Origin: a virus
DNA: 64,000 bases
Direction: 5' to 3' (one strand)
Virus record (IMG/VR): IMGVR_UViG_3300010346_000749
Location: 1 to 64,000 of that record
Shown: piece after piece, positions 28,244 through 62,632 of the stretch
How positions within the stretch are numbered: position 1 is the first letter of the stretch
How the letters are laid out: every line of letters starts with the position of its first letter
Translations under genes and position numbers: made by a program
The notes under the pieces: generated by a model
Seen by the model: the letters and a program-made list of their open reading frames with translations, nothing else
Database searches by the model: none
What the model was told of the DNA's origin: nothing

Positions 28244-31200
28244 ATGAAGCTAAATAAACAAGGATATCCATTTTATGATAAGGCTGAGCAAGATCGTGCT
28301 CAAAAAGGATATCAAGATGTTCTTTTTAATCCCGGCAGAAGTCTTCAACAAAGGGAATTAACAGAACTTGGGTCTTATCAATATGAAAGATTGAAGAGTT
28401 TTGTTCGTGAACAATTTGGTGGTAATCAAATTCTTAGTGGTGCTACTCTTTCAAATCTTAATTCTCAAACGAAACAGATTACCTTTAGTGGTGCCAAAAT
28501 TCTTTATGATGCTGATTTTTATACTGTTGATTCAACAACTCTTTCTTATGTCGGGTCTGGTGAAGAAGTTTTTTCTTTGGAATTGAAAGAACAGATTATT
28601 ACCGAAATTGAAGATGAAAGTTTGAATGATCCAACAGAAGGGTATGACAATTATAATCAACCAGGCGCTTTTAGAATTAAAAGATGGGTTGAATATGTAA
28701 AGAATACAACAGATACAAATGCTCTAAAAGTTTTGGTCATGAATAATGGAGTTATTACATTTCAAAGGAATGAGGCAACTCCTTCTAAAGAAACAAAGGT
28801 TCAAAATGAATCAGACATTATGGCTTTAATAGAACAAAGAACCTATGAAGAATCTGGCAATTATATTGCTTCAGGGTGTCGTTTGTTTAATAAACCTTGT
28901 CTAGACAATGAAAAAATTGGATTCTTTTTAGAGAGTGGCACAGTTTATATTGAAGGTCGCCGTATTGATGTATTGCCACAAGACTTGTTTATTAAAAAGT
29001 CATCATTGGTTGATAATGTCATTGGTGAAACACATATGACAAAAGCCATTTCTGATCCAATTTATACTTTAAGAGAATCTCCGGCTATCAAAATCAATAC
29101 ATTGTATTTGCCTATTTTAGCCACTGGTTCTATTACAAGAGGTTCTTCAAATCTTGACCCAATTGGTTTTAATTTAAACATTGTAGATATTAAAAAGGTT
29201 TATGTAAATGTTGGTAGTCCATTTGAAAAAAATGTTCATTATAAGCAAAATGGTAATTTTATTGAATGGTTAATAGCCCCACCAGAAGCACCTGCTGTTG
29301 GTTCAACATATACAGTAGAATATGTTTACAATAAAATCAATGGTGTAGAAAATGTTGATTATGAATTATTCTTGGGATTGCCAGTTAATGATAAAACATT
29401 AGCAACTACATTGCCTGCCAATGGCCAAATTGCAATTCCAATGGATGATGAAGTTGGCAATTTAATTGTTAAATCTGTTAAGGTTAATGGAACCAAATTA
29501 AATGATTATCAGTATATGATTAATCAGAATAAATTAACCATTCCTTATCTTACAAATAATCAAATTATTCGAAAATCTTTTCAGAAGAGTTCAAATGCTT
29601 CAGAAGTATTTCCAATTGATGCGACGATTAACAGAATTCTATATTATTCGTCATCTAATTTAAATCCTTATCTTGAAGGATTGCAGTATGTTCTCAATGG
29701 TCAGAATATTACCTTTTTAGATTCTGGAATAATGCCAAGTAAAGATTCATATTTAGTTGAATATCAATTGAATGCCCCAATCAATGCAACTTCCGGTGAT
29801 TCGGTTGAAATTATTTATGCTTATGAATCAAAAAGTCAATCTCAAGACTGGCAATCTCAAGTAGAATCTGTTTTAAAAATTCTGAATGTTAATCTTGCTG
29901 AAGGATATAATATTTTTGTTAATTATTCTTATGTTCCTACACAACATTATTATATTACGGTAGATAAAGATGGAAAAATTAATTCTAAATATCAACCTTC
30001 AAAGATTAAAGATTTAATGATTTCTTCAACAGAATTGTTAATTGCAGATGTTTATACAAAACATTATAGTATGATACCTTTTGTTCAACTCCAGAAAATT
30101 TTAAATGTTTCTATGGGTGAATTGAGAACAATGAAGACTGAAATTGAAAATCTAAAATATGATATTCAATTGTCAGATTTGGAAAAATTGGTTGAATTAA
30201 ATGAACCAGCTTCAAGTTTAAAAGGTGTATATACTGATGGATTCATAACAGATTCAAAAATAGATGATGGTTATTTGTCAATTAAATTGGGAGCTTCAAA
30301 TTATCAAAAAAGAACTCTTGTGCCAAATATTCCTAAGAAATTATTGAATTTGAATTTTACAATGACTGATACTATTTTGTCTCCAGACTGGAATGATCCA
30401 AAAACAACAGCCGGTAGATTTGACAAAATGGTTTTAATTTCTAAAGATTATACAGATGTTCTTTGGAAGAGTCAGCCATTAGCCAGTAATTACAGGTCAT
30501 TAGCAGAAGGGGCCGCTTGGGAAGCACAACCAAAAGTCAAAATCACTCCAGATAGTGATATGTTTATGGATAAAGAATCTTTGGAAAAACAATCAATTGT
30601 TTCCAAAATTGATTATACTTTGGCCAATGCCGGTGCGGCACCAGCTTTTAATAATAGTATTGTTCCTGTAGTTAATAATGGAACAGTTGGGGCAGGTTCT
30701 CAATCAACATCCACTATTGCCGGAGATTATCAAACAACCGTCGTGAAATGGTATGAAAAGAAAACTTCTGAAACTTCACAGAATCTAGGTGATTTTGTCA
30801 AGTCAATTGAAGCTGAAATGAATTTGAGACAAATTGAAATCAAACTATCGGCTGAAAATTTTCCAGACAATCAAGATTTAATTGAACTATTTTTTGATGG
30901 TATTAGATGTGAGTTAAGGCAAGACCCGGATAATTTAGTTGGCACACCAAGTCTATTATTGGATGGTGCTTTTAAAGCTAATTCGGATGGCAAATTTAAT
31001 GCTGTTTTTACTATTCCATCTGGTATTAGATATGGTAATAGAAAAGTTGAATTGATGGCACCAGGTAGTAAAACAGAAACAACTTTTTGGGGATTAGGAT
31101 TAAAACAACAAGTCCAAGAATTGACATATAATCAATCTATTACAAATTGGGAATTACAACAAAAAACAGTTAGCACTAAAATTTGTTCTTGTAGAACGAA

Positions 31201-33427
31201 TTGTAGTTGTAATGGTAGAACACCATGTAGTTGCAATGGGTATGTTCCACCTTCTTGTAGTTGTGATGCTAGAACTTCTTGCAGTTGTAATACCAGAACA
31301 CCAATAATTGCCTGTGAATGTAAAACACAATTGGCTTGTGGTTGCCATTCTAGAAATGTTTGTGAATGTAATTCAAGAACACATTGTAGTTGTAATTCTC
31401 GAACGCCTTGTAGTTGTGATGTTAGAACACCTTGTAGTTGTAATACTCGATATCCATGTATGTGTCAGGGTCGTGACAGTGGCAACAGAGACGGCGGCGG
31501 ATGTGGTGGAACAACACCAATTGGGCAAACGTTTGTCATCAATATGGAAGATGAAAGAACCTTTAGCCCAATTCAAAAGAAATTGATTGAATTGCCATCT
31601 AAATCAAATATTTTTGTATCGGCTGTTGATCTTTGCTTCCATCGTCCAGGCAATATTGATCCTATGTTTGTTATGTTCTCACCTCTTGGTGATCAAGGAC
31701 TACCATTGTATTTTGATATGGCAAGTCCAAATTATGAAGAATATTCATATTTGGATATTTTAAATTCAAATGCTTATTCTGATATTGCTGATAAATGGTT
31801 CCATAAAAAATTCTCCACACCAATGTCATTAGTTGGCAATTCTAGATATGCTATGATTTTAGGTTCTCACGATATTGAATGTAAACATTGGGTTGCTAAA
31901 CTTGGAGAGAAAAACGTTAAGACAAATGAAATAATTACCACTGAACCAGACAGAGGCGTTTTCATTGCAGCACCGAATGGTGATACATGGCAAACTGACA
32001 TTCAGAGTGATTTGACACATCAAATTTATATCGCTGATTTTTCTACTGACCCAAAAATTGAATTATTTGATTTTAATAATTCTACCATGTATCGTAGTTA
32101 TCTTTATTACCCAACGGTTGTTTTTAATGATGTTCTTAATTCTACTTGCCAAAAAGCTAATTTTATATTGGCAAGAATTCAAGGAGAAGAATCAACCGAT
32201 GGATTGGCTTATTTGAGATATGAATATTCAACAAATGCTGGCCAAACTTGGGTTGAATTTATCCCCGAAAGTCTCATTGAATTTGATGAGGCTGTTTCAA
32301 ATGTTCAATTTAGGGTAATTTTTGAATCAACTAATAAATATGGTTCACCAATGTTGAAAGATTCAAAATTGTATCTATCTTTTGGTAGATATGAAAAAGA
32401 TGGTTTTTATGTTTCAAGAAGTTCTAAGATTGGTGAATATAAATATGTCAATACCTATCTTGATAAGTTTAATGATCCTTCTCTTTCAACCATTGATATT
32501 TATTATTCACCTGACAATGGATATTCTTGGAGATCAATGCCACAAATGAAATCTGAAATGTTGTGGGTAGATTATCAAAAGGAAGCTTATCAAGTATATT
32601 GTGAAACGAAAAATAAATTAATTGATCCTGAAATTTTAAGTCATAATATTTCAGGTGTTGGATCATTAACAGGTAATAAATATTATTCAATTGTTTATCA
32701 TACTTTAAATGACGGAAGAACATTGGCCTCTAATAAATATCAAGTTTCTGGATTGTCAAATAATAAAGTTGATTTGTCCATCAAATTTGATCCAAATAGT
32801 TCATACTTCAAAATCTACAGAAGTAATACTATTGATGGGGATTATCATTTGATTTATAATTCAGGAGTCATGACAACATTAACAAATAATGTCCTTTCTA
32901 CTGATAATGTTTTACCTGTTAATTCCACGGTAGAATTTCCTGAAAGTGGATTCTTAATCATAAATAATGAATTTATTTCTTATAGTGGCAAAACATTAAA
33001 TTCATTTACTGGATGTGTCAGAGGTCAGACCGATTTAAATCAATTTGTGACAGTTGCATCAAACCATAATCTTGGAAATAGTGTAATTCTTATGAGTTAT
33101 CCTTCAACAGACTTGCCACTTTGTTCAGATGTTCAGGGTGCAAGTGGCAAAATACCGGATGACTTCGAAGTTCTTGGAACATTGCCAAATATTTATTGCC
33201 AAATGGTATTTACTGATGAAGGATTGAATGATTTAACTCCTGTATTAGTTGCCGAAACTGTTGTTCCAGAAGATGATGAAGCTGTTTTTGATTCTTCATT
33301 CTTGAAGATGATGATTCACATGAAAATTGATGGTGCCACGGAAAATGAAATTCAATCCAATTTGGACAATTCTAAATCATGGCCACAATGTGGTAGATTG
33401 ATGGTAAGTGCAAAAATGATTGATTAA
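28244..33427 (+). CDS. giant distal baseplate/fibre protein, paralog family member 1, with embedded CxC-xx-RT repeat block
   Basis: 1727 aa. N-module KGYQDVLFNPGRSLQQRELTEL and NYNQPGAFRIK are shared with 38999 and 34109/33512. 12 CxC units at aa 981-1076. Confidence 0.7.
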   Translation: MKLNKQGYPFYDKAEQDRAQKGYQDVLFNPGRSLQQRELTELGSYQYERLKSFVREQFGGNQILSGATLSNLNSQTKQITFSGAKILYDADFYTVDSTTLSYVGSGEEVFSLELKEQIITEIEDESLNDPTEGYDNYNQPGAFRIKRWVEYVKNTTDTNALKVLVMNNGVITFQRNEATPSKETKVQNESDIMALIEQRTYEESGNYIASGCRLFNKPCLDNEKIGFFLESGTVYIEGRRIDVLPQDLFIKKSSLVDNVIGETHMTKAISDPIYTLRESPAIKINTLYLPILATGSITRGSSNLDPIGFNLNIVDIKKVYVNVGSPFEKNVHYKQNGNFIEWLIAPPEAPAVGSTYTVEYVYNKINGVENVDYELFLGLPVNDKTLATTLPANGQIAIPMDDEVGNLIVKSVKVNGTKLNDYQYMINQNKLTIPYLTNNQIIRKSFQKSSNASEVFPIDATINRILYYSSSNLNPYLEGLQYVLNGQNITFLDSGIMPSKDSYLVEYQLNAPINATSGDSVEIIYAYESKSQSQDWQSQVESVLKILNVNLAEGYNIFVNYSYVPTQHYYITVDKDGKINSKYQPSKIKDLMISSTELLIADVYTKHYSMIPFVQLQKILNVSMGELRTMKTEIENLKYDIQLSDLEKLVELNEPASSLKGVYTDGFITDSKIDDGYLSIKLGASNYQKRTLVPNIPKKLLNLNFTMTDTILSPDWNDPKTTAGRFDKMVLISKDYTDVLWKSQPLASNYRSLAEGAAWEAQPKVKITPDSDMFMDKESLEKQSIVSKIDYTLANAGAAPAFNNSIVPVVNNGTVGAGSQSTSTIAGDYQTTVVKWYEKKTSETSQNLGDFVKSIEAEMNLRQIEIKLSAENFPDNQDLIELFFDGIRCELRQDPDNLVGTPSLLLDGAFKANSDGKFNAVFTIPSGIRYGNRKVELMAPGSKTETTFWGLGLKQQVQELTYNQSITNWELQQKTVSTKICSCRTNCSCNGRTPCSCNGYVPPSCSCDARTSCSCNTRTPIIACECKTQLACGCHSRNVCECNSRTHCSCNSRTPCSCDVRTPCSCNTRYPCMCQGRDSGNRDGGGCGGTTPIGQTFVINMEDERTFSPIQKKLIELPSKSNIFVSAVDLCFHRPGNIDPMFVMFSPLGDQGLPLYFDMASPNYEEYSYLDILNSNAYSDIADKWFHKKFSTPMSLVGNSRYAMILGSHDIECKHWVAKLGEKNVKTNEIITTEPDRGVFIAAPNGDTWQTDIQSDLTHQIYIADFSTDPKIELFDFNNSTMYRSYLYYPTVVFNDVLNSTCQKANFILARIQGEESTDGLAYLRYEYSTNAGQTWVEFIPESLIEFDEAVSNVQFRVIFESTNKYGSPMLKDSKLYLSFGRYEKDGFYVSRSSKIGEYKYVNTYLDKFNDPSLSTIDIYYSPDNGYSWRSMPQMKSEMLWVDYQKEAYQVYCETKNKLIDPEILSHNISGVGSLTGNKYYSIVYHTLNDGRTLASNKYQVSGLSNNKVDLSIKFDPNSSYFKIYRSNTIDGDYHLIYNSGVMTTLTNNVLSTDNVLPVNSTVEFPESGFLIINNEFISYSGKTLNSFTGCVRGQTDLNQFVTVASNHNLGNSVILMSYPSTDLPLCSDVQGASGKIPDDFEVLGTLPNIYCQMVFTDEGLNDLTPVLVAETVVPEDDEAVFDSSFLKMMIHMKIDGATENEIQSNLDNSKSWPQCGRLMVSAKMID
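31184..31472 (+). repeat. coding tandem repeat: about 12 units of C-x-C-x-x-R-T
   Basis: CSCRTNCSCNGRTPCSCNGYVPPSCSCDARTSCSCNTRTPIIACECKTQLACGCHSRNVCECNSRTHCSCNSRTPCSCDVRTPCSCNTRYPCMCQGR; reiterated TGTAGTTGTAAT...AGAACA at the DNA level. Confidence 0.9.
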
Positions 33428-33802: not shown

Positions 33803-34116
33803 TGATTAATGATCCGATCATTAGAATGATTCCAAATGATTATTATGATAAAATTAAGAAGAAGTTAAAAGGTCAGAAACGTTGCCATGGTTTAATTGTT
33901 CCAAATGATTTTGGAAGAACTCTAACATCTTTTGATGTAGAATTGTTGCAATCTATTCCAATTGATCTTTTAAAAGAAGTAGGCGAATCTCTTAATATGA
34001 AACCATTAATGGTTGTTGATGGGTTATTTAATAATTCATTTTCAATCAAAAAAGATTTGGTTTTTTTAAATGATTTGTCAAATTGCCAAGTAGTGGAGGA
34101 AAACTTTCATGGCTAA
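33802..34116 (+). CDS. hypothetical protein
   Basis: 104 aa, GTG start sharing one nt with the preceding TAG; overlaps the next ATG. Confidence 0.45.
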   Translation: MINDPIIRMIPNDYYDKIKKKLKGQKRCHGLIVPNDFGRTLTSFDVELLQSIPIDLLKEVGESLNMKPLMVVDGLFNNSFSIKKDLVFLNDLSNCQVVEENFHG

Positions 34117-37100
34117 GTATTTGAAATTAGCAAGTTTAACAGGAAATCCATTGTATGTGTATGATTCAAGATATCAATCAGATACTTCACATTATGAAGC
34201 TGATTTGATTAAACTATCTGGTATTGACAAATATGTTTTTATGGATGATGATGAAACAAAAGTATTTTCTGTTTTTGCAAATTGGATTCCGACAACTTGC
34301 AGTATCAGTTTGAAATTGCAATTTAACCCTCTTTTGTTAAGTAAAGATTTTAGTTTGTTTGGATATGGAAATGATTTAAATCTTAGTAATTCATGGGGTC
34401 TTTTTGTAAAAGAAAATAAATTTCAATTATTGATTTCCAATGGATTGAATTATTTAACAGTAGTTTTCCCATCTTTTACGTTTGACAATAATTTTGACTT
34501 TGCAAAGAAATATAATTTGACATTCATTCAGAATGCTAAAACAGCTACAATTTATCTTGACAATAAAAAGATTGATTCTATTGAATTGCCTTTTTCATTG
34601 GTATCATCACAGATCAATTCAAAAATCTTTATTGGTTCTCTTGGTGATATTACAAGATATGATGCATTTATGGGAAAAATTTTTGAGGTTGGTATCTGGG
34701 ATAGAGAGCTATTTAATGAAGAAATTCAAGATTTGACCAATTTTAGAATTCAAGATAATCCAGCTCTTCAAACAAATGTAAAGAAGATTAAGATTTATCA
34801 AGGTAAGATTTATTATGAAGGCATTTTTCATAATGTGCCAGAATCATCTGTTTATATTCAATGTCAAGGACTTGAAACAGTTGATCTTTGCATCAATGAA
34901 AAAATAATCACTGAAAATGATGATCCTGATTTATTGGATTCATCAGTTGATTATTTCAATTTCAATCGACCCGGCGCTCATAGGTTGTCTTATGAATATC
35001 AAGTAGTCAGAAATGCCAATCCTCAAAATTATGACATTGTCATTACACTGTTAAAATTCCTTGATGGCGTTAAAATCTTTGATTTACTTGAGGAACAAAA
35101 TGGCAAAACGGAATCAAATGTAGTTGTCCCAACTCCTGAAAGTTTGCCAGACAACCTTGCTGAAATTGTCATGGATATTACTGGCAATTTTATTGTTGAA
35201 GGATTGGATGTTTCTATGGTTCAGGGAGTGGATAAATATACCCTTACATTAAATCCCGGTAAATACTATCTGAATGGCAAGAAATATCAACTATCTTCAC
35301 AAAGAACATTTGATATCCCAAAACAATTCCAGACACAGAAAGTTTATGGGGAACCAGTCAAATATATTGAAAATGATACTTATCGTATAAATAAACAACC
35401 TTTGACAAAATCATCAACACCTGAAATTGTTATTCCTGTTGTTGAAAGAAATGTTATGATAACAAAGGGTATTCCGGGTGGACAGGACAGTATTCAAGGA
35501 TTTGGAAATATTATCAAACTCTTGAAAGTTCAAGATACCACAACATATCTCGAAGAGGGAAATACTTCAATCACCCCTTCTTGCCAATTGACAGGAAATA
35601 AAATTGACTGGTCATTACCTGGCAATGAACCATCAGAAGGATCAACATATACGGCTAATTTTATTTACAATAAGCTTTTAATTGAAGGAAAAGATTATTA
35701 TAGATGTTTAGGAAATAAGGTGCAAAAAGAAATTGTTTCTTATAATGCCAGTAATCTCTATCCTGTTTATTATGAACCCGAATTCATTGTTAGAATTAAG
35801 AATGGTTCAATGATTTTTGACAATGATGATGTTGTGATTACTGGAAAAACAATTTCTTTCAAGAATCATTCTTCATTAAATAATACACAACCAATTGAAA
35901 TTATTTACTCCTTTAGTTCACATTCATTCTTTAAGAATAAGTGGTCTATTTATTTTGATCCAACTTCTAATGAATTCAATGCAAACTATTGGGGATACAT
36001 TAATTATGACTATGATCTTGCTGACATTTATACATTGGCTATTTTTGGAAATAATTCAATTGGATTGGTAAAAGGATTGTCTGGAAATTTGGATACGGTT
36101 TCAAAGGCCAATATTGACAAAAATTCATTGCCAATAACTGATATTTTGATTGATTCTTCTTCTTTCTCGGAAAACAATTCAATTAAAAAATATGAATGGA
36201 ATAGAACACCTATATCACAAGTTGTTGAAAATTTAAGAAGAACGGAAAGACTTGAGGAACGAGTTATTTTGAGTTCCTTAGAAACTGAAGCTTCATCTTA
36301 TGCTAGTGCTGATATTCTTAAAGGAACATTTACTGATAGTTTGGCCGATTATAATTATTCAAATATTTATCATCCTGAATTTACTGGCCATATTGATATG
36401 ATTGATTCTCTTGGCAATCTTTGTTCTGGACTAGAAAAAAAAGTCTTTCAAACTGTTGGAAATGCAAATGCAAGATTTAAAGAATTTGGATACATGCCAA
36501 TTGTTTCTCAACAGAATAATGAAACAATCCAGATTTCCGATGTATTGAAATTTGGTTCCAATACGGAATCAACATTTAAATCTATCAGTGTTTACAATGA
36601 TTATGATTATATCAGTGAATCAAATGATCAATGGCCACAAAAATTTGTTGATAACATTCTTTTCAATCGTAGACCAATTATTCCATCAACGATAAATACA
36701 CAATCAACAAATGGAATGGACATTCAAAATCAGTCTTATTTGAAATCAATCACTGAAAAATTAAATAAGATGGTTCAATGGTCTTCTTTTAAAATGACCA
36801 ATAAAGAATTAATTCTCGTTGGTATTAATCACAATTCATCGGAGTCCAATCTTTCTGTTTTGGTTGGCAATAAAGAAGTTCAATTGGAACAGGTTTCATT
36901 GTTGTTTGACAATATTAAACAACAATTTTATGTTCCAAATGTTCAAACAACAACGTCAACAAATAAAACTGTTTATATTTATGAACCAATCCAAAGTGGC
37001 TCCGGTTGGATAGTTCAAGACAATAAAATAACCTGTAATCTCAATGGGGAATTTGTTGTTAAGGTAAAACTGGAAGGATTAAATATTTCAACTGGATTGG

Positions 37101-38980
37101 TTGAATTAAAGGTTGTTGATGCATCACAAAATAAATCCACAATCACTTTGAATTGTAGTGGCATCAATAATAAGATTAGAAACATTTTAGTCAACAATAA
37201 AAGAATGGATGATAGTATTTTTGGTATTTCACCATTCATGAATCAGTCCAATCCTTTTTATGTTCAACCTTTTAAAGTAAATGAATCCAGAATTCTGAAC
37301 AATGTTTCGATTCTTTCAACATTTCTTGATTTTTCGAGGCCAATTGTTATTAGTATTCAAGAATTTGAAAATGGTAAGCCTGGTAAAATTCTTACTCAAA
37401 AAATCATTTCAAAGGAATCTGATGTTTCAATTACCAATGTCATTAATAGTTTAACACCGATACAAAAGATGAATGTCATTTTTAATCAACCTGTAATTTT
37501 AAGACCTGATCAAACATATTGTATTGGTATTAATTCTAGTTCACCTTTGTTGAATATTGGTATCATCCAAAAAGGTCAACCATCAATTTTTAATAATTTG
37601 ATGATTACTAATCTGACACAAAATTATCCTCTTCGTCAATTGTTAGATGAGGATTCTTATAAGGTTCTTGAGAATATGGAATTGTCATTTAATCTTGGAG
37701 TAAGTTCTGTGAGTGCTCCTGTTGTTAATGGATTTTATCAATCAGAAATTGTTTTTAAGGAAATCGAATTTCAGCCATCAGATAGAGGATATCATTTCTC
37801 TGTATTGATTGATGATTTGAATTATTTTGACAACCAAACAAAAGTTGATTATTATTACACCGTTGAAACTGAAAGCACTCCTGCTGGTGTGTATGGAACA
37901 ATTTGGGAACAATTTTTGCCGTATACTGTAATTCAGAATAATTCAAAAATCATTAAACTTCAGATTAAAGCTGTATTAAAAACAAAGAACATTAATTATT
38001 CTCCAAGTGTTCACTTGTATCCATCTGTGGTAATTTATAAATATAAATCATCTTCTAACTATATTTCAAAAGCTTTTGAATTGTTTGAAAATAATGCTGA
38101 CAACGTTAAAATTTACTTTGATGCTTATTTGCCAACTGATAACCTTTTAAAGATTTACGTGTCTCCAAATGATTCAAGTGATTGGAGAGAAATTGATTAT
38201 TCAAATGAAATTTCAAAATCAAATGGAACATTTGCCAAGTTTACATATCTGACAAAATTGTCATTGTTGAAACCAAACATTTTAGAAATTTCAAAAGATG
38301 GTTCGGGTAGTTTAACGGGTAAGTATTATTATCGAGTGGCTTTGTTAGATAGGGATGGATTTGAAATTGGTTCTGAATTAGTAGAAATTAATGGATGTTC
38401 GAATAATTCAGTGAAGTTAAAAATACAACCAGATAAAAACATGTATGGTTTTAAAGTTTATAGGGGAATTACTTCTATTCAATTGAATCAGATTTATGAT
38501 TCAACATCACATGCACTGTTAATACAAAATCTGGATAATCAATCAACAACAGTATTCTTAGATACAAATAAACTCATTGATTTCCCAAATTCTGGTAAAA
38601 TTAGAATTGACAATGAAATTATGACATTTACAAAATCTGGAAATGCTTTAACAGTTGTTCGTGGGTCTGATTCAACCAGAATTGAAAAACATGATGCCAA
38701 TGGTGTCAGAGAAGCTTATTTGTGGGATCACGGAACAATTATTCAGGAATCATTAAATGGTCAATGTCCATCATTAATACAAGATGGAAATATATTCTAT
38801 TTCAATTTTGTTGATAATGGTTCAAAATATTCTACTAATACTACAAAGGTATTTGTTCCTTCATCTACAAACCAAACTTCTATTTATCCCAAGTATATTT
38901 TGGTGAAGATTCAAATGATTAATAATTTGTTAAAAGATACTCCTTTAATCAAGAACTTGATTGTCAATGCCTTGGTTTAA
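34109..38980 (+). CDS. giant distal protein, family member 2, N-terminal LamG-like lectin domain
   Basis: 1623 aa. LamG-type pattern (IYLDNKKIDSIELPF...IFIGSLGD...GKIFEVGIWDRELFNEEIQDL), then family motifs NFNRPGAHRLSYEY, SLETEA and LKGTFTDSLADY. Confidence 0.7.
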   Translation: MAKYLKLASLTGNPLYVYDSRYQSDTSHYEADLIKLSGIDKYVFMDDDETKVFSVFANWIPTTCSISLKLQFNPLLLSKDFSLFGYGNDLNLSNSWGLFVKENKFQLLISNGLNYLTVVFPSFTFDNNFDFAKKYNLTFIQNAKTATIYLDNKKIDSIELPFSLVSSQINSKIFIGSLGDITRYDAFMGKIFEVGIWDRELFNEEIQDLTNFRIQDNPALQTNVKKIKIYQGKIYYEGIFHNVPESSVYIQCQGLETVDLCINEKIITENDDPDLLDSSVDYFNFNRPGAHRLSYEYQVVRNANPQNYDIVITLLKFLDGVKIFDLLEEQNGKTESNVVVPTPESLPDNLAEIVMDITGNFIVEGLDVSMVQGVDKYTLTLNPGKYYLNGKKYQLSSQRTFDIPKQFQTQKVYGEPVKYIENDTYRINKQPLTKSSTPEIVIPVVERNVMITKGIPGGQDSIQGFGNIIKLLKVQDTTTYLEEGNTSITPSCQLTGNKIDWSLPGNEPSEGSTYTANFIYNKLLIEGKDYYRCLGNKVQKEIVSYNASNLYPVYYEPEFIVRIKNGSMIFDNDDVVITGKTISFKNHSSLNNTQPIEIIYSFSSHSFFKNKWSIYFDPTSNEFNANYWGYINYDYDLADIYTLAIFGNNSIGLVKGLSGNLDTVSKANIDKNSLPITDILIDSSSFSENNSIKKYEWNRTPISQVVENLRRTERLEERVILSSLETEASSYASADILKGTFTDSLADYNYSNIYHPEFTGHIDMIDSLGNLCSGLEKKVFQTVGNANARFKEFGYMPIVSQQNNETIQISDVLKFGSNTESTFKSISVYNDYDYISESNDQWPQKFVDNILFNRRPIIPSTINTQSTNGMDIQNQSYLKSITEKLNKMVQWSSFKMTNKELILVGINHNSSESNLSVLVGNKEVQLEQVSLLFDNIKQQFYVPNVQTTTSTNKTVYIYEPIQSGSGWIVQDNKITCNLNGEFVVKVKLEGLNISTGLVELKVVDASQNKSTITLNCSGINNKIRNILVNNKRMDDSIFGISPFMNQSNPFYVQPFKVNESRILNNVSILSTFLDFSRPIVISIQEFENGKPGKILTQKIISKESDVSITNVINSLTPIQKMNVIFNQPVILRPDQTYCIGINSSSPLLNIGIIQKGQPSIFNNLMITNLTQNYPLRQLLDEDSYKVLENMELSFNLGVSSVSAPVVNGFYQSEIVFKEIEFQPSDRGYHFSVLIDDLNYFDNQTKVDYYYTVETESTPAGVYGTIWEQFLPYTVIQNNSKIIKLQIKAVLKTKNINYSPSVHLYPSVVIYKYKSSSNYISKAFELFENNADNVKIYFDAYLPTDNLLKIYVSPNDSSDWREIDYSNEISKSNGTFAKFTYLTKLSLLKPNILEISKDGSGSLTGKYYYRVALLDRDGFEIGSELVEINGCSNNSVKLKIQPDKNMYGFKVYRGITSIQLNQIYDSTSHALLIQNLDNQSTTVFLDTNKLIDFPNSGKIRIDNEIMTFTKSGNALTVVRGSDSTRIEKHDANGVREAYLWDHGTIIQESLNGQCPSLIQDGNIFYFNFVDNGSKYSTNTTKVFVPSSTNQTSIYPKYILVKIQMINNLLKDTPLIKNLIVNALV

Positions 38981-38998: not shown

Positions 38999-41900
38999 AT
39001 GAAATCAATTATGGATGCTACTAGGAAGCCGTATTATGATTCATCGGCTGAAGAAATAAGTAAAGGATATGTCAAATTATTGTCAGTTCCCGGAAGAACA
39101 TTACAAAATAGAGAATTGAATGTAATGACCGGATTGACAATGGAACATATCAAAAATATTGGGGATAACATTTTAACAAATGGAACGGTTGTGTCTGGAT
39201 GCTCTTTCTTTCTCCGAGAAGATATAGGGAGAGCATCCCTTTCCAATGGTAAAATTTATGTTGATGGATATATCATTGATATTCCGAATGCTGAATGGCC
39301 CATTGAAGATGTTATTGAAGGTGTCAAATTTATTTGTGTTGAAATCCATCAAATGGCAATTACCGAAGAAGATGACCCATTATTAAAAGACCCTGCTGAA
39401 AAGTATGAAAACTATGGTGAACCAGGCGCTCATAGATTGAAAATTATTTCTGTTCCATTAATCTTTACGGAAGAGGAATTGAAAATTGCTCAGTCTGGTT
39501 CCAGAAGAATCATTGATATTTTGAAATTGATTAATGGGCGTCTTATTGGCCCAACTAAACCAAAACCTGCTTTTGGTAAAATGTATGATTATCTTGCTCA
39601 TAGAACATTTGATGAAGTTGGCAATTTTATTGTCAAGGGAATGAAAGTTTCCTGTTCTTCTGATGAATCAACGATTGAAAGATACAAGATCAATATTACT
39701 CCCGGCAGAGCTTATGTAATGGGATATGAATACAGTTATGATAATCAAAATATCAAAAATAAATCTGCCATTGATAGTAAAAATTCAACAGTTGATGAAG
39801 TGAGAACATTTACTTCTTCGGTTAAAGAATATAAACTGTTTAAACCAAATGTCAAGCTTATTGAAAAAATTCAATGTCAAGTTCGAAATAATAACTTCCA
39901 AGTTATTCGATCAGTTTCAGGCTCCATGTCTGATATTTTGAAACTTGATTCTGTAAAAGAAATTCATCAGATTTTTCAAGGGAATAATGTTTATGTAAAT
40001 GGAAGAGATTGGACAAGGGATGGTAATTCAATTGTGTGGTTATCATCAAATAGACCTGCTTCTGGTTCAACATTCTTTGTTGATATTTCCTATATAAGAA
40101 GATATTATGAAGGTGTTGATTATTCTCTTTCTGTTGATGATGACAATTATACCATCATAATGTTTCAAGTTGATCCAGAAGAAAATTCGGATTTTACCAT
40201 TACTTATACTTGGTATCTTTCACGTTATGATTTAGTTTATATTGACATTTCTGGTGAGTTAAAAGTAATTTCTGGTATTGCTGGTGAAGAGTGGGAAATA
40301 ACAGTTCCACAAATTCCAATTAATACTCTTCCATTGGCTTATATCTATGTCAAACCAGGCAAACAACCATCAAGTTATTCAGTTCAAATGTTTAATATTT
40401 ATAGAGTTTCGGTTGTTGATCAAAGAGCCAATATTGATAGACTTAACAATTTGGAATTCAATTTAGCTATGACAGCACTTGAAACAGAAGCCCAAAAGAT
40501 ACATGAACAGAAAGATGAATCACAATCAAGTGGTAATTTAAAAGGTATTTATGTTGATTCATTTGCTGATTTTTCAAGATCAGACTATTATCATCCTGAT
40601 TATAGAGCAGGCATTAATATCTTTGAACAAGAATTAAGATTACCACTGGTTTCTGAAATTCTTGGTGTTAAGGAAATTGAAAACAATCAAATCATTGATA
40701 CATCCTCTACTACATTCAATAATGATTATATGATTTCTCTTCCTTATTCTGAAATGGCAATTGACTGGCAAAGATATGCAACAGATTCAATTGATTTGAA
40801 TCCTTATAATTTGATTCCATTGAAACCAATCTTGGAAGTTAAACCGCCATATTCAGTAAAGATTGAAGAACGTATTGCTAGAGATACAGAAGTTATTTTA
40901 CCATTAAAGACATTTATGTCAAGTTCAACAATTCGAAATTCTACATCAAGAACCGTTAGCACATCAACAACGGTTGGAAGTGGAAATACTGTTATTAGTA
41001 GTTGGAGTTCTGTTTCAACATCATCAACAACTTCAACATCAACTTCAAGATCAGTTAAAAATGAAACATTTAAAAATATTTCAATGAAATTTCTTGAGGA
41101 TTTAGATACTGGATTGATGCCACAAGAAACATTGAGAATCAAGGGAAGGAATTTTATTCCATTTTCAGAAGTGCGATTGAATTTTAATGATGTTTTAATT
41201 ACTTCTTTCAATCTCTTGCCAAATATGGGCACTGTCGGAAGTTTGCCATATCAGATTAAAACAAATAGTCGTGGGGAATTCGAATTAGATTTCAAAACGC
41301 CTGTTGCAACATCAACTGGAACAAAGTTGATTATGGTGGCTGAATATAAACAAATCAACAATGTATGGCAATCAACTGACACTGTTGCCATTACTTCTTA
41401 TACTGGACTTTCTTTTATTCGTGAAATGGAAAGAATTACAGAAGTTCAGAACATTCAAAGAATCTACGATACTATGTATATCAACACTTTGAATACTACA
41501 ACTGTTAGTGTTGTTAATCAATTAGGATGGACATGGCGAGGCGATCCATTGGCACAATCTTTCTGGTTTGATGAAGATACATTCATTTCAAGTTTTGATT
41601 TGTTCTTTGAATCAAAGCCTGAAAATCCAGAGATTAAAGAAATTTGGTATATGATTAGGGAAATATCTGGTGGGGAACCAAATGGCCCAATTCTTTATAG
41701 ATCAACTTTGCGATGGGAAGATATTAAAACTTCGCCAGATGCAACAATTCCAACAAACTTTAAATTCAATTTCCCAATATATTGTCAACCTTCAAAAGAA
41801 TACGCTTTGATTGTTGGCTGTGATAGGCCGGGATATAAGATTTATTTTGCTAAGATGAGTAATAAAGATATCATGACAAATACTTTATTACAGTCTCAAA

Positions 41901-42331
41901 CACATAAGGGAACAATGTTTACATCTTCAAATAATGTTTCATGGACGACACATCAAGACCAAGACTTAACATTTACACTCTATCGTGCTAAATTCAATCC
42001 GATTGGAACATTGCTATTTAAACCATTGTCATTATCTCTTGGGAAATTTTCACTCATGAATATTTCATTTGATTCTATCGTTTTGGAAGAGACAGAAATC
42101 AAAACAACATACCAAATTAATAATAAAGAATGGTATATTTGTCCATTGTCCGAATCAATTTCAATAGAATCGAATTATGATGACAGACAAGATATCATTT
42201 TTAAATTCGAATTGTCAACTTCTGATGATAGAAAGACACCATTTATCAATTTAAATACTCTTTCAATGTTGTTTGCTAAATATGGATTGACTGGGTCTTA
42301 TATTATGAGAAGCATGGAAATTCCAAATTAA
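38999..42331 (+). CDS. giant distal protein, family member 3, with Ser/Thr-rich linker
   Basis: 1110 aa; KGYVKLLSVPGRTLQNRELNVM, NYGEPGAHRLK, ALETEA, LKGIYVDSFADF; STSRTVSTSTTVGSGNTVISSWSSVSTSSTTSTSTSRS linker. Confidence 0.7.
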   Translation: MKSIMDATRKPYYDSSAEEISKGYVKLLSVPGRTLQNRELNVMTGLTMEHIKNIGDNILTNGTVVSGCSFFLREDIGRASLSNGKIYVDGYIIDIPNAEWPIEDVIEGVKFICVEIHQMAITEEDDPLLKDPAEKYENYGEPGAHRLKIISVPLIFTEEELKIAQSGSRRIIDILKLINGRLIGPTKPKPAFGKMYDYLAHRTFDEVGNFIVKGMKVSCSSDESTIERYKINITPGRAYVMGYEYSYDNQNIKNKSAIDSKNSTVDEVRTFTSSVKEYKLFKPNVKLIEKIQCQVRNNNFQVIRSVSGSMSDILKLDSVKEIHQIFQGNNVYVNGRDWTRDGNSIVWLSSNRPASGSTFFVDISYIRRYYEGVDYSLSVDDDNYTIIMFQVDPEENSDFTITYTWYLSRYDLVYIDISGELKVISGIAGEEWEITVPQIPINTLPLAYIYVKPGKQPSSYSVQMFNIYRVSVVDQRANIDRLNNLEFNLAMTALETEAQKIHEQKDESQSSGNLKGIYVDSFADFSRSDYYHPDYRAGINIFEQELRLPLVSEILGVKEIENNQIIDTSSTTFNNDYMISLPYSEMAIDWQRYATDSIDLNPYNLIPLKPILEVKPPYSVKIEERIARDTEVILPLKTFMSSSTIRNSTSRTVSTSTTVGSGNTVISSWSSVSTSSTTSTSTSRSVKNETFKNISMKFLEDLDTGLMPQETLRIKGRNFIPFSEVRLNFNDVLITSFNLLPNMGTVGSLPYQIKTNSRGEFELDFKTPVATSTGTKLIMVAEYKQINNVWQSTDTVAITSYTGLSFIREMERITEVQNIQRIYDTMYINTLNTTTVSVVNQLGWTWRGDPLAQSFWFDEDTFISSFDLFFESKPENPEIKEIWYMIREISGGEPNGPILYRSTLRWEDIKTSPDATIPTNFKFNFPIYCQPSKEYALIVGCDRPGYKIYFAKMSNKDIMTNTLLQSQTHKGTMFTSSNNVSWTTHQDQDLTFTLYRAKFNPIGTLLFKPLSLSLGKFSLMNISFDSIVLEETEIKTTYQINNKEWYICPLSESISIESNYDDRQDIIFKFELSTSDDRKTPFINLNTLSMLFAKYGLTGSYIMRSMEIPN

Positions 42332-48184: not shown

Positions 48185-48417
48185 TTCGGCCTTGGGATCT
48201 CGACTTTCTTTCCACCATTCTGCCGCTCGTCGTACATGAGATTGGACATTGGCTCGTGGCCCGGACACAGGCTGTGCTTCCATTTCGGTTGGGGCGCCTG
48301 CTCGGCGTGAGGCCTGCCACGTGTCCTGTGGACGATGCCGCCATGACCGTCACAGACGTGGAAGCGATGCATACAGCGGGGCACAATCATATAAGTAATA
48401 TAAAAATTTATAATTTT

Positions 48418-48437
48418 AACGAACGGGAAAACTACCA
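48418..48437 (+). repeat. copy of the 5' end of the structured intergenic element at the right edge of the G+C-rich insert
   Basis: ATAATTTTAACGAACGGGAAAACTACCA (48410-48437) matches ATAATTTTAGCGAACGGGAAAACTACCA at 12146-12173. Confidence 0.6.
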
Positions 48438-48448
48438 CATTTTGGCAC

Positions 48449-49407: not shown

Positions 49408-49430
49408 AACAAAATGAAAGAAGTGATAAA

Positions 49431-59895: not shown

Positions 59896-60192
59896 ATGTT
59901 TAGGTCAATAAATCAAAGATTATCAAATGATACAACAAGATTACAAGAACCTATTGTTATTGATCAAAATGTTCAGGGGATTAAAAAAGGTAATGGTTTG
60001 TTTGCTGGAAATAATTTAGAAACTGTAATTGCACATGGTTTGGGATATGCCCCAAAATACGTAAATGTAATTCCAATAAATAATCCTCAAGGGACTTTGG
60101 GCGAAATATGGACACGAATGGATCAAACAAATATTTATGTTGGGAATACTGGAACATTTACAGGTCAATTTGTTTGGATTGTAATTAAATAG
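59896..60192 (+). CDS. hypothetical protein
   Basis: 98-aa ORF, RBS GGGAAGG; TAG stop, second TAG two codons later. Confidence 0.55.
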   Translation: MFRSINQRLSNDTTRLQEPIVIDQNVQGIKKGNGLFAGNNLETVIAHGLGYAPKYVNVIPINNPQGTLGEIWTRMDQTNIYVGNTGTFTGQFVWIVIK

Positions 60193-60207: not shown

Positions 60208-61716
60208 ATGGATTTATCCACAGTTGAAAAAATATATCAACAAGATTATAAATCAGTTCCAATTATGAATTCGACATATATTATTACTGGTAAATGTAGT
60301 CTTGCATGTAAATATTGTTTTGAGAGAGGTATGCCTGCTTCAAAAAGAAAGGACATGTCCAGTCAAGTAGCTATTCAAGGAATGGAATTTCTTTTTGAAA
60401 ATTCAAAACATATGCCAAATAATAGATCAATTTCAATTATGTTGTTCGGCGGAGAACCAACAATGAATCCACGAACAATTATTAGTCTAATAAATCATTA
60501 TAAAAATAATATTAAACCAAGATATCCAAATAGAAATTTTAGCATGAATATTATCACGAATTGTTGTCAATTATCAGATGAACTTTATAATTGTTTTCTT
60601 GAGAATGCACAATTAATAAATCTTTCTTGCCAGGTGTCAATTGATGGCATGCCAGAGATTCAAGATTTAAATAGAATACAGCCAAATGGAAAAGGTTCTT
60701 CTCATTTAATTCCAGATACATTAAATAAATGGAAACATATTTTTAAACATGATCCAAAACGATTGAATGTTCATGGGTGTTGCTCACCTGAAACCATTTC
60801 TTATTTATATGAAAATTATTGTTATTTTAAAGATGTTTATGGAATTTCCCAAATTTGGTTTTTACCAGTTCCAGAATTGGATTGGAAACCAGAACATGTA
60901 AAGATTTATGATGAACAAATGAATAAAATTTACCATGATGTTCTCAATGACGTTAAAAAAACTGGCGATGTTAATCAAGCATTCTGTTATGCTCCTTTAG
61001 ATAGATTTATGTCATGTGATTTTCCAGATAAACCTTGTGGAGCTGGAACAGATTATTGCACAATAACACAAGATGGAGATTTATTTCCTTGCCATCAACT
61101 TTATTTTTGTGATAAAGAAAATGAGACATGCATGGGAAATATTTGGGATGGTGTTGATGATGACAAAAGAAGAATCTTTTTAGAGTATGATAGTTTTGAT
61201 TTAACCTGTCCATCTTCATGTGATCATGGAGCTTGTTATAGATGTTTTGCTTCCAATTATCAAAATCGTGGATCAATGTTATCTCAAATAAGAGGATATT
61301 ATTGTTCGATGATGAAAATAGATCAGAAATATGAAAGAATGTTAAAGGAGGAACTTTTTAAAATGGGACTATTAAATGGAGAAAATATGAACCACAATCC
61401 AAATTGTCTATGTGATTCTCGTGGCGATCAAAATGTTTGCCATAAAGAATGTAATGGAGAATGCCAGGGGGAATGTGGCAATGAATATTGCCAAGATGGT
61501 TGCCACGATTGCCATTGCGGAAGTGAAGATCAACATATTAAATCTCAATGGCAAGATAAAGTTTGTAATTCTGAATTTGAAATAGATACATTTACTGATG
61601 AACAGGGTAATGAAATTACAATTAAGAGGCGAAAGAAACAAACCAATATTGATGAAGCTATTAATATTTTGTCTCAAGCATTCAGTGAAGTTATTAAATT
61701 ACTTCAACAGAGGTAA
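60208..61716 (+). CDS. radical SAM enzyme with SPASM-type auxiliary cluster domain and Cys/His-rich C-terminal tail
   Basis: CSLACKYC (CxxxCxxC), LFGGEPT, SIDG. Then CGAGTDYCTITQDGDLFPCHQ and CPSSCDHGACYRC, typical of SPASM/anSME-like maturases. Tail CLCDSRGDQNVCHKECNGECQGECGNEYCQDGCHDCHCG. RBS AAGGAG. Confidence 0.85.
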   Translation: MDLSTVEKIYQQDYKSVPIMNSTYIITGKCSLACKYCFERGMPASKRKDMSSQVAIQGMEFLFENSKHMPNNRSISIMLFGGEPTMNPRTIISLINHYKNNIKPRYPNRNFSMNIITNCCQLSDELYNCFLENAQLINLSCQVSIDGMPEIQDLNRIQPNGKGSSHLIPDTLNKWKHIFKHDPKRLNVHGCCSPETISYLYENYCYFKDVYGISQIWFLPVPELDWKPEHVKIYDEQMNKIYHDVLNDVKKTGDVNQAFCYAPLDRFMSCDFPDKPCGAGTDYCTITQDGDLFPCHQLYFCDKENETCMGNIWDGVDDDKRRIFLEYDSFDLTCPSSCDHGACYRCFASNYQNRGSMLSQIRGYYCSMMKIDQKYERMLKEELFKMGLLNGENMNHNPNCLCDSRGDQNVCHKECNGECQGECGNEYCQDGCHDCHCGSEDQHIKSQWQDKVCNSEFEIDTFTDEQGNEITIKRRKKQTNIDEAINILSQAFSEVIKLLQQR

Positions 61717-61723: not shown

Positions 61724-62632
61724 ATGATGAAACGAGTTGAAACGTATGTTGTATATGTATCCGGCAGATGTAATTGCAATTGTCATTATTGTTATCTTAA
61801 AACTGGTGGGTTGAACCCAAAACTCGATTATGATTTTGATACAGATATTAAACCATTATTGGACAACATCAAGAAATCTACTGAACCATTTGTAATTGAA
61901 TTTCTTGGTGGTGATCCGATTGTAGATGACTTATCTGTTTTAAATTTAATCAAAACGGTTAATTATTTTCCAACTGGTCAGCCTTTCATTATTACAACAA
62001 ATGGAACAAGGTTGCCAAATGAAATACTCGAATTGTTAAAATCAAATCCAAATATTTATTGGGCGGCTTCAATGGATGGAACAAAGTGGGCTAATCAATT
62101 GAGAATTACCAAAGATGGATATAATACTTATGATTTGGTAATGGAAAATATTAAGACTCTTAAAATGAATAATATTCCTGATAAACAAATTGGCATTCAC
62201 TTAATTACACATCCTTATAATATTGCTTTTCTGGAACAAAGTATTGATCATCTTTACAAAAAAGGCATTAGAAATTTTGGAATTGGAACAGTAGAATCTA
62301 CCATGAAGATAGGATATGAATATTGTTCTAGATTCATATATGAATTGAATCAAGTTTCTACCAATATTTGCAATGGTAAATATCCTGAAATTGGTATTGA
62401 TTTATTTAATGGTATTAAACCAAGAGAAGATATCAGGCAATATATACACGATGGTAATGGAAATATTATTGGTGAATCTTATGGAAGAAATAAAGATGAT
62501 TTTACACAAACTGATACTTTTAATGTTCAAAAATGTGATAATACAAAGAGAAATTTAATTCAAGAAATTCGTGAAGAAGTCTATTGGAATCATCAAGATA
62601 ATCTCAAAAAGAGGCTCTTTCATAATAAATAG
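61724..62632 (+). CDS. second radical SAM enzyme (no SPASM extension)
   Basis: CNCNCHYC (CxxxCxxC), FLGGDP, ITTNG, SMDG; 7 nt after the previous stop. Confidence 0.8.
   Translation: MMKRVETYVVYVSGRCNCNCHYCYLKTGGLNPKLDYDFDTDIKPLLDNIKKSTEPFVIEFLGGDPIVDDLSVLNLIKTVNYFPTGQPFIITTNGTRLPNEILELLKSNPNIYWAASMDGTKWANQLRITKDGYNTYDLVMENIKTLKMNNIPDKQIGIHLITHPYNIAFLEQSIDHLYKKGIRNFGIGTVESTMKIGYEYCSRFIYELNQVSTNICNGKYPEIGIDLFNGIKPREDIRQYIHDGNGNIIGESYGRNKDDFTQTDTFNVQKCDNTKRNLIQEIREEVYWNHQDNLKKRLFHNK

What the first reader, a model, noticed from the sequence alone, without database searches (positions are those of the whole stretch)
31184..31472. The same CxC-xx-RT repeat is embedded in a 1727-aa virion protein 30 kb from the radical-SAM genes
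Seen: aa 981-1076 of ORF 28244-33427 read CSCRTNCSCNGRTPCSCNG...CSCDARTSCSCNTRT...CECNSRTHCSCNSRTPCSCDVRTPCSCNTRYPCMCQGR. That is 12 units of the motif that makes up ORF 62644-63897. The block is inserted between ordinary beta-rich fibre sequence and ends in a GGGCGG linker. The two paralogous giant proteins (34109, 38999) have no such block. Inference: a structural tail or baseplate-distal protein carries the putative substrate motif, so the radical SAM enzymes could install crosslinks in the virion (hardening or protease resistance). Alternatively the block is a metallothionein-like metal-binding insert.
Basis: partly seen in the sequence, partly recalled or inferred. Interest (0 to 1): 0.75.

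Follow-up and report, generated by a model that had tools for sequence, protein, structure and literature searches.

The report
Radical-SAM substrate repeat inside phage baseplate protein
A phage baseplate protein carries, in a linker between two domains, the cysteine-rich repeat that many uncultured phages encode next to radical-SAM enzymes, so the phage may chemically cross-link part of its own tail, though this is not shown.

Summary
Residues 981-1077 of ORF 28244-33427 hold 24 Cys in 97 residues, arranged as 12 CxC units (9 strict CxCxxR). The consensus, C-[S/D/T]-C-N-x-R-T, is the same as in ORF 62644-63897.

- **Host protein:** a homologue of the phage 812 tripod baseplate protein (DUF4815). 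The block is a roughly 140-residue insertion at a junction between two domains. The two paralogues have no CxC at all.
- **Link to radical SAM:** the motif belongs to an uncurated phage family of 132 clusters among 1.84 billion proteins. Its genes sit in a conserved cassette of rSAM-A (SPASM type, closest to CteB/PapB, no RRE domain), the repeat protein and rSAM-B. The cassette was found in more than 20 loci and in no isolated phage.
- **Rarity:** the tripod protein is the only cluster in which the array is buried in a large structural protein.
- **Selection:** across two alleles, all Cys, 9 of 10 Arg and all Thr are kept despite many synonymous changes. Half of the other positions changed (p = 2e-7).
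- **Weak points:** the tail copy lacks the family's usual N-terminal leader. No modification is demonstrated. Co-occurrence could not be tested beyond this genome.

Enzymatic cross-linking of the tail block is plausible (about 0.4) but unproven.

The parts
28244..33427 (+). Tripod-type baseplate protein (1727 aa, DUF4815), the host of the Cys-rich block
   Evidence: Pfam DUF4815 at 2e-67. PDB 9euf, the phage 812 tripod protein, at 6e-41. Its gene follows the baseplate J, P2_I-like and BW3TFN genes. Alleles at 89% identity (L001) and 97% identity (P0068) exist.
31184..31474 (+). The block: aa 981-1077, 12 CxC units (9 strict CxCxxR), 24 Cys in 97 aa, mostly an 8-residue (24-nt) period
   Evidence: Unit logo C-[S]-C-N-x-R-T-P. 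Profile of cassette proteins hits aa 962-1080 at E = 5e-14.
31475..31612 (+). Rest of the insertion: the Gly-rich linker DSGNRDGGGCGG plus about 35 residues, up to the point where homology to the 812 tripod protein resumes (aa 1123)
   Evidence: In the PDB alignment, window aa 860-967 match chain residues 686-787 and aa 1123-1275 match chain residues 804-952.
34109..38980 (+). Tripod paralogue 2 (1623 aa, DUF4815) without the block
   Evidence: It has 11 Cys and no CxC.
38999..42331 (+). Tripod paralogue 3 (1110 aa, DUF4815) without the block
   Evidence: It has 7 Cys and no CxC.
59896..60192 (+). 98-aa ORF directly upstream of the cassette, with a C-terminal domain conserved upstream of cassettes in other phages
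   Evidence: 43% identity, E = 7e-17, to the C-terminus of L100 8546-9976. A similar sequence occurs at L104 2-481.
60208..61716 (+). rSAM-A: radical SAM/SPASM enzyme (502 aa), with CX3CX2C at aa 30-37, no N-terminal RRE domain, and a Cys-rich C-terminal tail
   Evidence: NCBIfam PapB family 1e-45, SCIFF maturase 1e-31, CXXX-repeat maturase 3e-29, all below the curated cut-offs. Closest PDB entry is 5wgg at 1e-23, aligned only from chain residue 89. Orthologues occur in every cassette examined.
61405..61422 (+). Substrate-like CLCDSR unit in the C-terminal tail of rSAM-A (aa 400-405)
   Evidence: It is conserved in rSAM-A of L226, L227, L230, L232, L235, L237 and L239. In L103 it is a separate 84-aa ORF with four such units.
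61724..62632 (+). rSAM-B: small radical-SAM enzyme (302 aa), whose only invariant Cys are those of the CX3CX2C motif, so no conserved auxiliary cluster
   Evidence: Pfam Radical_SAM at 2e-12. Invariant columns. Orthologues lie next to repeat proteins in 14 of 16 IMG/VR loci.
62644..63897 (+). Stand-alone CxCxxRT-repeat protein (417 aa, 48 Cys, 14 strict units) with a leader-like N-terminus (aa 1-55, nt 62644-62808)
   Evidence: Leader HMM at 101 bits. Homologues at 96%, 51% and 30% identity all lie next to an rSAM gene.

Best explanation
The block is a leaderless, in-frame copy of the core repeat array (C-x-C-N-x-R-T) of a phage-specific family of cysteine-rich proteins. Genes of that family are always found beside two radical-SAM enzymes.

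Here the array sits as a roughly 140-residue insertion in a linker between two distal domains of a tripod-type baseplate protein.

Most likely mechanism (inferred):
1. Late in infection, rSAM-A, which resembles CteB/PapB, converts Cys thiols of each unit into intramolecular thioether cross-links to a nearby side chain. The second Cys and the Thr form a Cys-X3-Thr pair, and Arg or Asn are alternative acceptors.
2. rSAM-B, which has no conserved auxiliary cluster, adds a second, unknown radical modification.
3. The primary substrate is the 417-aa leader-bearing protein.
4. The same enzymes plausibly act on the exposed tail-protein array. This would turn a flexible linker into a rigid, protease-resistant spacer that is insensitive to redox conditions, on a protein whose homologue undergoes large domain movements during host attachment.

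Shown: motif identity, the cassette linkage, the position of the insertion, and purifying selection on Cys, Arg and Thr. Inferred: the chemistry, and that the tail copy is a substrate at all.
For: 1. The unit consensus is the same in 200 stand-alone units, 24 tail units and 1537 units across 131 family representatives.
2. A profile built only from cassette proteins hits the tail block at E = 5e-14 for 1.84e9 proteins.
3. The cassette rSAM-A, repeat protein, rSAM-B is conserved in the window, L002, L003, L005, L073, L100, L103, L104 and L226-L239.
4. The closest solved structure to both rSAMs is 5wgg. From my own recall this is CteB, a Cys-Thr thioether synthase. The best NCBIfam hits are PapB and SCIFF maturases.
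5. rSAM-A lacks the N-terminal RRE domain, because the alignment to 5wgg starts at chain residue 89. It carries a CLCxxR unit in its own tail.
6. Leaderless substrates lie next to rSAM genes: the L073/L233 proteins start with units at residue 4, and P0093 (1067 aa) is followed by an rSAM.
7. Between the window and L001 tail alleles, 24/24 Cys, 9/10 Arg and 10/10 Thr are kept, with 19 synonymous changes among them. At other positions 24 of 50 changed non-synonymously (Fisher p = 2e-7).
8. Radical SAM/SPASM enzymes are known to modify proteins rather than short peptides: AnSME acts on sulfatases and QhpD on QhpC (PMC10114670).
Against: - The tail protein has no match to the leader HMM. 107 of 131 family representatives start their repeats only after a 40-130-residue N-terminal region.
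- PapB-type recognition is dominated by leader-RRE docking (PMC12373016).
- Similarity of both rSAMs to characterised thioether synthases is far below the NCBIfam cut-offs: 156 bits against 340 for rSAM-A and 77 bits against 340 for rSAM-B.
- There is no chemical evidence.
- Only this genome shows the block and the cassette together. The other contigs carrying the tail gene end too early.
- No cassette locus shows an embedded block within 10 kb on either side.
- The tail units have Pro after Thr in 12 of 24 cases, which is rare in stand-alone units.
Confidence: 0.42

Rival explanations
1. The block is an unmodified cysteine array. It either binds metal (Zn, Cu or Fe-S, as in metallothionein) or forms disulfides within or between the three chains of the tripod trimer after release from the cell. 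The radical-SAM enzymes act only on the leader-bearing 417-aa protein.
For: The block is 25% Cys, with CxC spacing typical of metal-thiolate clusters. The tail protein has no leader. AlphaFold2 predicts no fold for the bare polypeptide, as expected if a ligand or cross-link is needed.
Against: Arg and Thr are conserved as strictly as Cys in the tail alleles, and they match the rSAM-linked consensus. Simple metal binding or disulfide formation does not require them. Pfam and NCBIfam give no metallothionein hit. Outside rSAM cassettes the motif is essentially absent from 1.84e9 proteins.
Confidence: 0.28
2. The array is a binding module rather than a substrate. Displayed on the baseplate, it recruits the matured 417-aa protein or the rSAM enzymes, or it contacts a host surface component. 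The shared motif reflects that shared binding function.
For: - rSAM-A carries a CLCxxR unit in its own tail, which could mediate like-with-like contacts.
- Some family members fuse the array to other, unrelated domains (P0076, P0009).
- Cassettes lie beside tail or baseplate genes in L104 and L035.
- In phage 812 the domains flanking the insertion site are putative receptor-binding domains (PMC13433997).
Against: There is no direct evidence of interaction, and the fused domains have no recognisable family. This reading does not explain why two radical enzymes always accompany the motif unless modification is part of the function.
Confidence: 0.15
3. The block is a functionless low-complexity expansion of a 24-nt repeat that happens to resemble the other gene.
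For: Unit number and order differ between alleles, as expected for slippage-prone 24-nt repeats.
Against: There is strong purifying selection on Cys, Arg and Thr alongside many synonymous changes. The block is kept in three alleles. The profile match is E = 5e-14. There is no nucleotide similarity to the 417-aa gene, so it is not a recent copy.
Confidence: 0.03

Closest known systems
Ranthipeptide/SCIFF systems (CteB-CteA thermocellin, PapB-PapA freyrasin)
   Same: They pair a radical SAM/SPASM enzyme with a Cys-rich substrate that has repeated Cys-Xn-acceptor motifs. rSAM-A's best hits are the PapB and SCIFF maturase models and PDB 5wgg. The unit contains a Cys-X3-Thr pair, comparable to PapA's Cys-X3-Asp and to the Cys-Thr link of thermocellin (my own knowledge; class described in PMC10114670).
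   Different: Scores are far below the family cut-offs. rSAM-A has no N-terminal RRE domain. The substrates are 100-1700-residue proteins with up to 28 units rather than peptides of about 45 residues. A second rSAM without an auxiliary cluster is always present. The system is encoded by phages, with no protease or exporter nearby. One copy lies inside a structural protein.
QhpD/QhpC (quinohemoprotein amine dehydrogenase gamma subunit)
   Same: A radical SAM/SPASM enzyme installs several Cys-to-side-chain thioethers in a protein that stays part of a larger assembly (PMC10114670). rSAM-A hits the QhpD model at 3e-28.
   Different: QhpC is a small dedicated subunit with a leader. Its acceptors are Asp and Glu. 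It has no tandem repeat array and no viral context.
Anaerobic sulfatase-maturating enzyme (AnSME)
   Same: A SPASM enzyme that is not a RiPP maturase. It modifies a Cys or Ser within a short local motif ending in Arg, inside a full-length protein and without a leader (PMC10114670; the motif C/S-x-P/A-x-R is from my own knowledge). rSAM-B hits the model at 8e-11.
   Different: The motif spacing differs: in CxCxxR the Arg lies at +5 and +3 from the two Cys, not +4, and there is no Pro or Ala. AnSME modifies a single site and produces formylglycine.
Phage 812 / A511 tripod protein (DUF4815)
   Same: The N-terminal DUF4815 domain and two distal domains align. The gene lies in the same baseplate neighbourhood.
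   Different: The 812 protein has 16 residues where the window protein has 155. No Cys-rich array is reported for it.
Metallothioneins
   Same: About 25% Cys, CxC motifs, and no predicted fold without a ligand.
   Different: The block has conserved Arg and Thr in every unit, a strict 8-residue period, genomic linkage to radical-SAM genes, and no Pfam or NCBIfam hit.

Membership tests
Phage rSAM-cassette CxCxxRT-repeat protein family (uncurated; defined here) | Array of C-x-C-[N/D]-x-R-[T/S] units with a significant match to the family profile | tested here: met
   The logos are identical. The profile hit is 68.7-70.1 bits, E about 1e-14 at Z = 1.84e9.
Phage rSAM-cassette CxCxxRT-repeat protein family (uncurated; defined here) | N-terminal leader-like domain (helix, KGG, helix, ending ..L.N.M..R) | tested here: not met
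   The leader HMM hits only ORF 62644-63897 (101 bits). Nothing in either tail allele reaches E < 10. A minority of cassette proteins also lack it (L073/L233, P0093).
Phage rSAM-cassette CxCxxRT-repeat protein family (uncurated; defined here) | Gene directly adjacent to rSAM-A and/or rSAM-B orthologues | tested here: not met
   The block lies 28.7 kb upstream of rSAM-A, on the same genome and strand. The stand-alone member at 62644 meets this feature.
Ranthipeptide / SCIFF system | Maturase scores above the curated cut-off of a thioether-maturase model | tested here: not met
   PapB model 156 bits against a cut-off of 340. SCIFF model 110 bits against 425.
Ranthipeptide / SCIFF system | N-terminal RRE (leader-binding) domain on the maturase | tested here: not met
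   The rSAM core starts at residue 23-30, and the alignment to 5wgg starts at chain residue 89.
Ranthipeptide / SCIFF system | [quoted passage not shown] | not testable with these tools
   Needs mass spectrometry or NMR of the product.
DUF4815 tripod baseplate protein | DUF4815 domain above the Pfam gathering score, homology to the solved tripod protein, and a gene within a baseplate module | tested here: met
   228 bits against a cut-off of 30. PDB 9euf at 6e-41. Neighbouring genes encode baseplate J, P2_I-like, BW3TFN and hub proteins.
Metallothionein | Match to a metallothionein sequence family | tested here: not met
   Pfam on the whole protein and NCBIfam on the block alone give no such hit.
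Metallothionein | Stoichiometric binding of Zn, Cu or Cd by thiolate clusters | not testable with these tools
   Needs metal analysis of recombinant block or of virions.
AnSME-type motif-directed Cys modification | Target motif C/S-x-P/A-x-R | tested here: not met
   Direct reading of the units: the Arg lies at +5 and +3 from the two Cys, and there is no Pro or Ala at +2.

The most novel reading that the evidence does not exclude
A phage uses its own radical-SAM enzymes to install arrays of thioether (or other radical) cross-links directly in a baseplate receptor-binding protein. This would be the first radical-SAM-matured virion structural protein. It would act as a redox-insensitive substitute for disulfides in anoxic habitats. 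The wider cassette, 132 clusters found only in uncultured and often jumbo phages, would then make cross-linked structural or adhesive proteins rather than secreted RiPPs.
Probability: 0.3. Interest if true: 0.88.

Novelty: new variant of a known kind. Interest (0 to 1): 0.7.

Why it matters
Radical-SAM peptide maturases are known almost entirely from bacterial RiPP clusters that act on short, leader-bearing peptides. Here a conserved pair of such enzymes travels in phages with large repeat proteins, and one lineage has placed the repeat array inside a baseplate protein.

If the array is modified, several things follow:
- It would be a new kind of covalent virion stabilisation, alongside HK97-type isopeptide cross-links.
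- It would be a natural example of leader-independent, motif-directed radical cross-linking of a large protein.
- The compact 8-residue tag (CxCNxRT) could be used for enzymatic protein stapling.

If the array is not modified, the cassette is still an undescribed, widespread phage system whose function is directly testable.

Tried and rejected
- **Co-occurrence survey.** The IMG/VR and JGI metagenome scans with the tail protein returned only one contig, Ga0209719_1001032 of 37 kb. Look-ups by exact protein sequence gave contigs of 9-36 kb.
- **Isolated phages.** GenBank phages have no DNA match. They have no tblastn match for the 417-aa protein or for rSAM-B.
- **Bacterial genomes.** The degenerate DNA pattern for CxCxxRTxCxCxxRT gave only chance or out-of-frame hits among the first 120 matches in GTDB genomes. 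That scan was truncated, so it is inconclusive.
- **Leader in the tail protein.** None found.
- **Recent duplication of the 417-aa gene into the tail gene.** There is no nucleotide similarity beyond 16 nt, so this was rejected.
- **AlphaFold2.** Models of the block with its flanks and of the 417-aa family had pLDDT of about 30-34 and were uninformative.
- **Domains fused to repeats in P0076, P0009, P0093 and P0116.** No Pfam, PHROG or PDB match.
- **Neighbours of the L018 repeat genes.** No family hits.
- **Sulfatase-type CxPxR motif.** Considered and rejected because the spacing differs.
- **Literature.** Searches for phage radical-SAM systems with Cys-rich repeats found nothing relevant.
Full report
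**Observation**

ORF 28244-33427 translates without interruption to 1727 residues. Residues 981-1077 (nt 31184-31474) read CSCRTNCSCNGRTPCSCNG...CSCNTRYPCMCQGR. This stretch holds 24 Cys in 97 residues, against 12 Cys in the remaining 1630. It has 12 CxC pairs, and 9 of them fit C.C..R.

Tandem Repeats Finder sees three arrays with a 24-nt period, which equals 8-residue units. ORF 62644-63897 (417 aa, 48 Cys) has 14 C.C..R units. In all six frames of the window, C.C..R[TSYNV] occurs only in these two ORFs. The block ends in GNRDGGGCGG. The two paralogues (34109, 38999) have 11 and 7 Cys and no CxC.

**What the host protein is**

The window is the tail and baseplate module of an uncultured myovirus with about 30% GC. 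In order, it encodes:
- a tape measure protein (13847);
- a hub/lysozyme-like protein (22171);
- a baseplate J protein (24188);
- a P2_I-like protein (26288);
- a BW3TFN protein (27661);
- three tandem DUF4815 proteins, followed by LamG and tail-fibre-like proteins.

DUF4815 is the fold of the tripod protein gp119 of Staphylococcus phage 812. Trimers of gp119 hang on the baseplate arms, carry putative carbohydrate-binding domains and rearrange by tens of angstroms on attachment (PDB 9euf; PMC13433997).

In the alignment to 9euf, window residues 860-967 match chain residues 686-787, and residues 1123-1275 match chain residues 804-952. So 155 window residues replace 16 in phage 812. That makes an insertion of about 140 residues at a junction between two distal domains. 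The insertion consists of the block plus a Gly-rich linker. BLASTP among the three paralogues aligns only the flanks.

**What the motif is**

The 417-aa protein has only three homologues in the word-indexed search of 5.8 billion proteins, at 96%, 51% and 30% identity. Each lies directly beside a radical-SAM gene. Querying with the tail block returned five short proteins, P0004-P0008. Those examined lie next to 2-7 radical-SAM genes, one of them on a 275-kb contig.

All-against-all comparison defines two orthologous enzymes.
- **rSAM-A** is the window's 502-aa protein. It is of SPASM type.
- **rSAM-B** is the window's 302-aa protein. Its only invariant Cys are those of CX3CX2C, so it has no conserved auxiliary cluster.

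A scan of IMG/VR with an rSAM-B profile gave 16 loci. In 14 of them a CxCxxR-repeat protein lies beside rSAM-B with rSAM-A nearby, usually in the order A, repeat protein, B.

A profile of nine stand-alone proteins, searched against 1.84 billion cluster representatives, found 132 proteins. Their median length is 238 aa and their median content is 8 strict units. In 107 of 131 the repeats begin after a 40-130-residue N-terminal region.

The unit consensus is C-[S/T/D]-C-[N/D]-[S/T]-R-T across 1537 units. It is the same in the 24 units of the two tail alleles.

No isolated phage in GenBank has the repeat protein or rSAM-B. No curated NCBIfam, Pfam or PHROG family covers the repeat protein. This is therefore an undescribed cassette borne by phages.

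**How unusual the tail copy is**

Among the 132 representatives, only P0068 has the array buried in a large structural protein. P0068 is a 1730-aa allele of this same tripod protein, 97% identical to the window's. Other large forms exist:
- P0093 (1067 aa) has no leader and is followed by a 512-aa rSAM.
- P0076 has a leader, repeats and a 340-aa C-terminal domain, and is followed by an rSAM-B-type gene (306 aa).

The block shows no extended nucleotide similarity to the 417-aa gene, so it is not a recent copy.

**Selection**

Between the window and the 89%-identical L001 allele, the block shows these patterns:

| Residue class | Conserved | Synonymous changes among them |
|---|---|---|
| Cys | 24 of 24 | 5 |
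| Arg | 9 of 10 | 7 |
| Thr | 10 of 10 | 7 |
| Other positions | 26 of 50 | 8 |

The other 24 of 50 positions changed non-synonymously, and units were gained or lost. The contrast between motif residues and other positions gives Fisher p = 2e-7. The third allele differs only at x positions and restores a Thr. Arg and Thr are therefore as constrained as Cys. A plain metal-binding or disulfide array would not need that.

**Likely mechanism (inference)**

For rSAM-A, the best family hits are PapB ranthipeptide maturase (1e-45), SCIFF maturase (1e-31), the CXXX-repeat maturase (3e-29) and QhpD (3e-28). All are well below the curated cut-offs. The closest solved structure for both enzymes is 5wgg/5why, which I recall to be CteB, the SCIFF/thermocellin enzyme.

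These relatives make Cys-to-side-chain thioethers (PMC10114670). Each unit offers a Cys-X3-Thr pair, plus Asn and the highly conserved Arg. I therefore propose thioether cross-linking by rSAM-A and a second, unknown radical step by rSAM-B.

For the tail copy, the main obstacle is the missing leader. The leader HMM finds only the 417-aa protein, and PapB-type enzymes dock on leaders through an RRE domain (PMC12373016). Four facts soften this objection.
- rSAM-A has no N-terminal RRE domain, because the alignment begins at CteB residue 89.
- Its own C-terminal tail carries a conserved CLCxxR unit.
- Some cassette substrates have no leader.
- SPASM enzymes such as AnSME and QhpD act on proteins rather than short peptides.

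AlphaFold2 gives no fold for either array, with pLDDT about 30. That is compatible with a region that needs cross-links or ligands, but it is weak evidence.

**Verdict**

- The block is the same module as the rSAM-linked repeat: about 0.9.
- The host is a virion baseplate protein: about 0.9.
- The block is actually modified by the phage's rSAM enzymes: about 0.4.
- The main rival is an unmodified metal- or disulfide-forming array, at about 0.28.

The cassette is a new variant of rSAM/SPASM systems that act on Cys-rich substrates. Radical cross-linking of a virion protein would be new in kind if confirmed.

Noticed in passing
window 61363-61716 (aa 386-502 of rSAM-A; CLCDSR at nt 61405-61422): rSAM-A ends in a Cys-rich tail containing a substrate-like CLCxxR unit and a terminal helix. 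The unit is conserved in rSAM-A of L226, L227, L230, L232 (3 units), L235, L237 and L239. In L103 it is a separate 84-aa ORF with four CxCxNRGG units. It could be a pseudo-substrate, a site of self-modification or a docking element.
   Followed up: partly
window 8378-8454 (and 32-8454): The phage encodes nine tRNAs, including tRNA-Cys(GCA), in a genome with three very Cys-rich products (48, 33 and 36 Cys).
   Followed up: no
window 59896-60192: A 98-aa ORF just upstream of rSAM-A shares a C-terminal domain (AHxLGxxPxxVxxxPxxNPxGxLGExW..TNIxVxNxG) with proteins upstream of the cassette in L100 (43% identity, E = 7e-17) and L104. It may be a fourth conserved component. It has no family match.
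   Followed up: partly
window 53941-58946: A run of ORFs with PAS, GAF and CHASE4 sensor domains, at only 25% GC, lies between the tail-fibre genes and the rSAM cassette. Sensor domains of this kind are unusual in a phage late region.
   Followed up: no
window 46000-50000: GC rises to 42% against about 30% elsewhere, over the tail-fibre-like ORFs 45332-48184. This suggests recently acquired receptor-binding genes.
   Followed up: no
L103 4182-6386: The rSAM-A orthologue in this locus is interrupted by an intein/LAGLIDADG element (734 aa; the rSAM part aligns from residue 365).
   Followed up: no
L100 10819-20636; L104 1108-5328; L237 9983-15299: Jumbo-phage versions of the cassette carry 4-7 radical-SAM genes in a row, including two further orthologous groups (C and D) that are absent from the window.
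   Followed up: partly
L002/L244 downstream of the repeat gene; L003; L073: The cassette repeatedly lies beside lysis-type genes: glucosaminidase and DUF2730 in L002/L244, glucosaminidase in L003, and an Rv2525c-like glycoside hydrolase in L073. In L104 and L035 it lies beside baseplate, tail-fibre or virion structural genes.
   Followed up: partly
L018 6471-9319 (minus strand): Tandem leaderless ORFs (383 and 560 aa) carry CxCNSRT pairs separated by Tyr/Thr/Asp-rich spacers of about 25 residues, on a 75.5-kb viral contig. No rSAM was found among the neighbours tested.
   Followed up: partly
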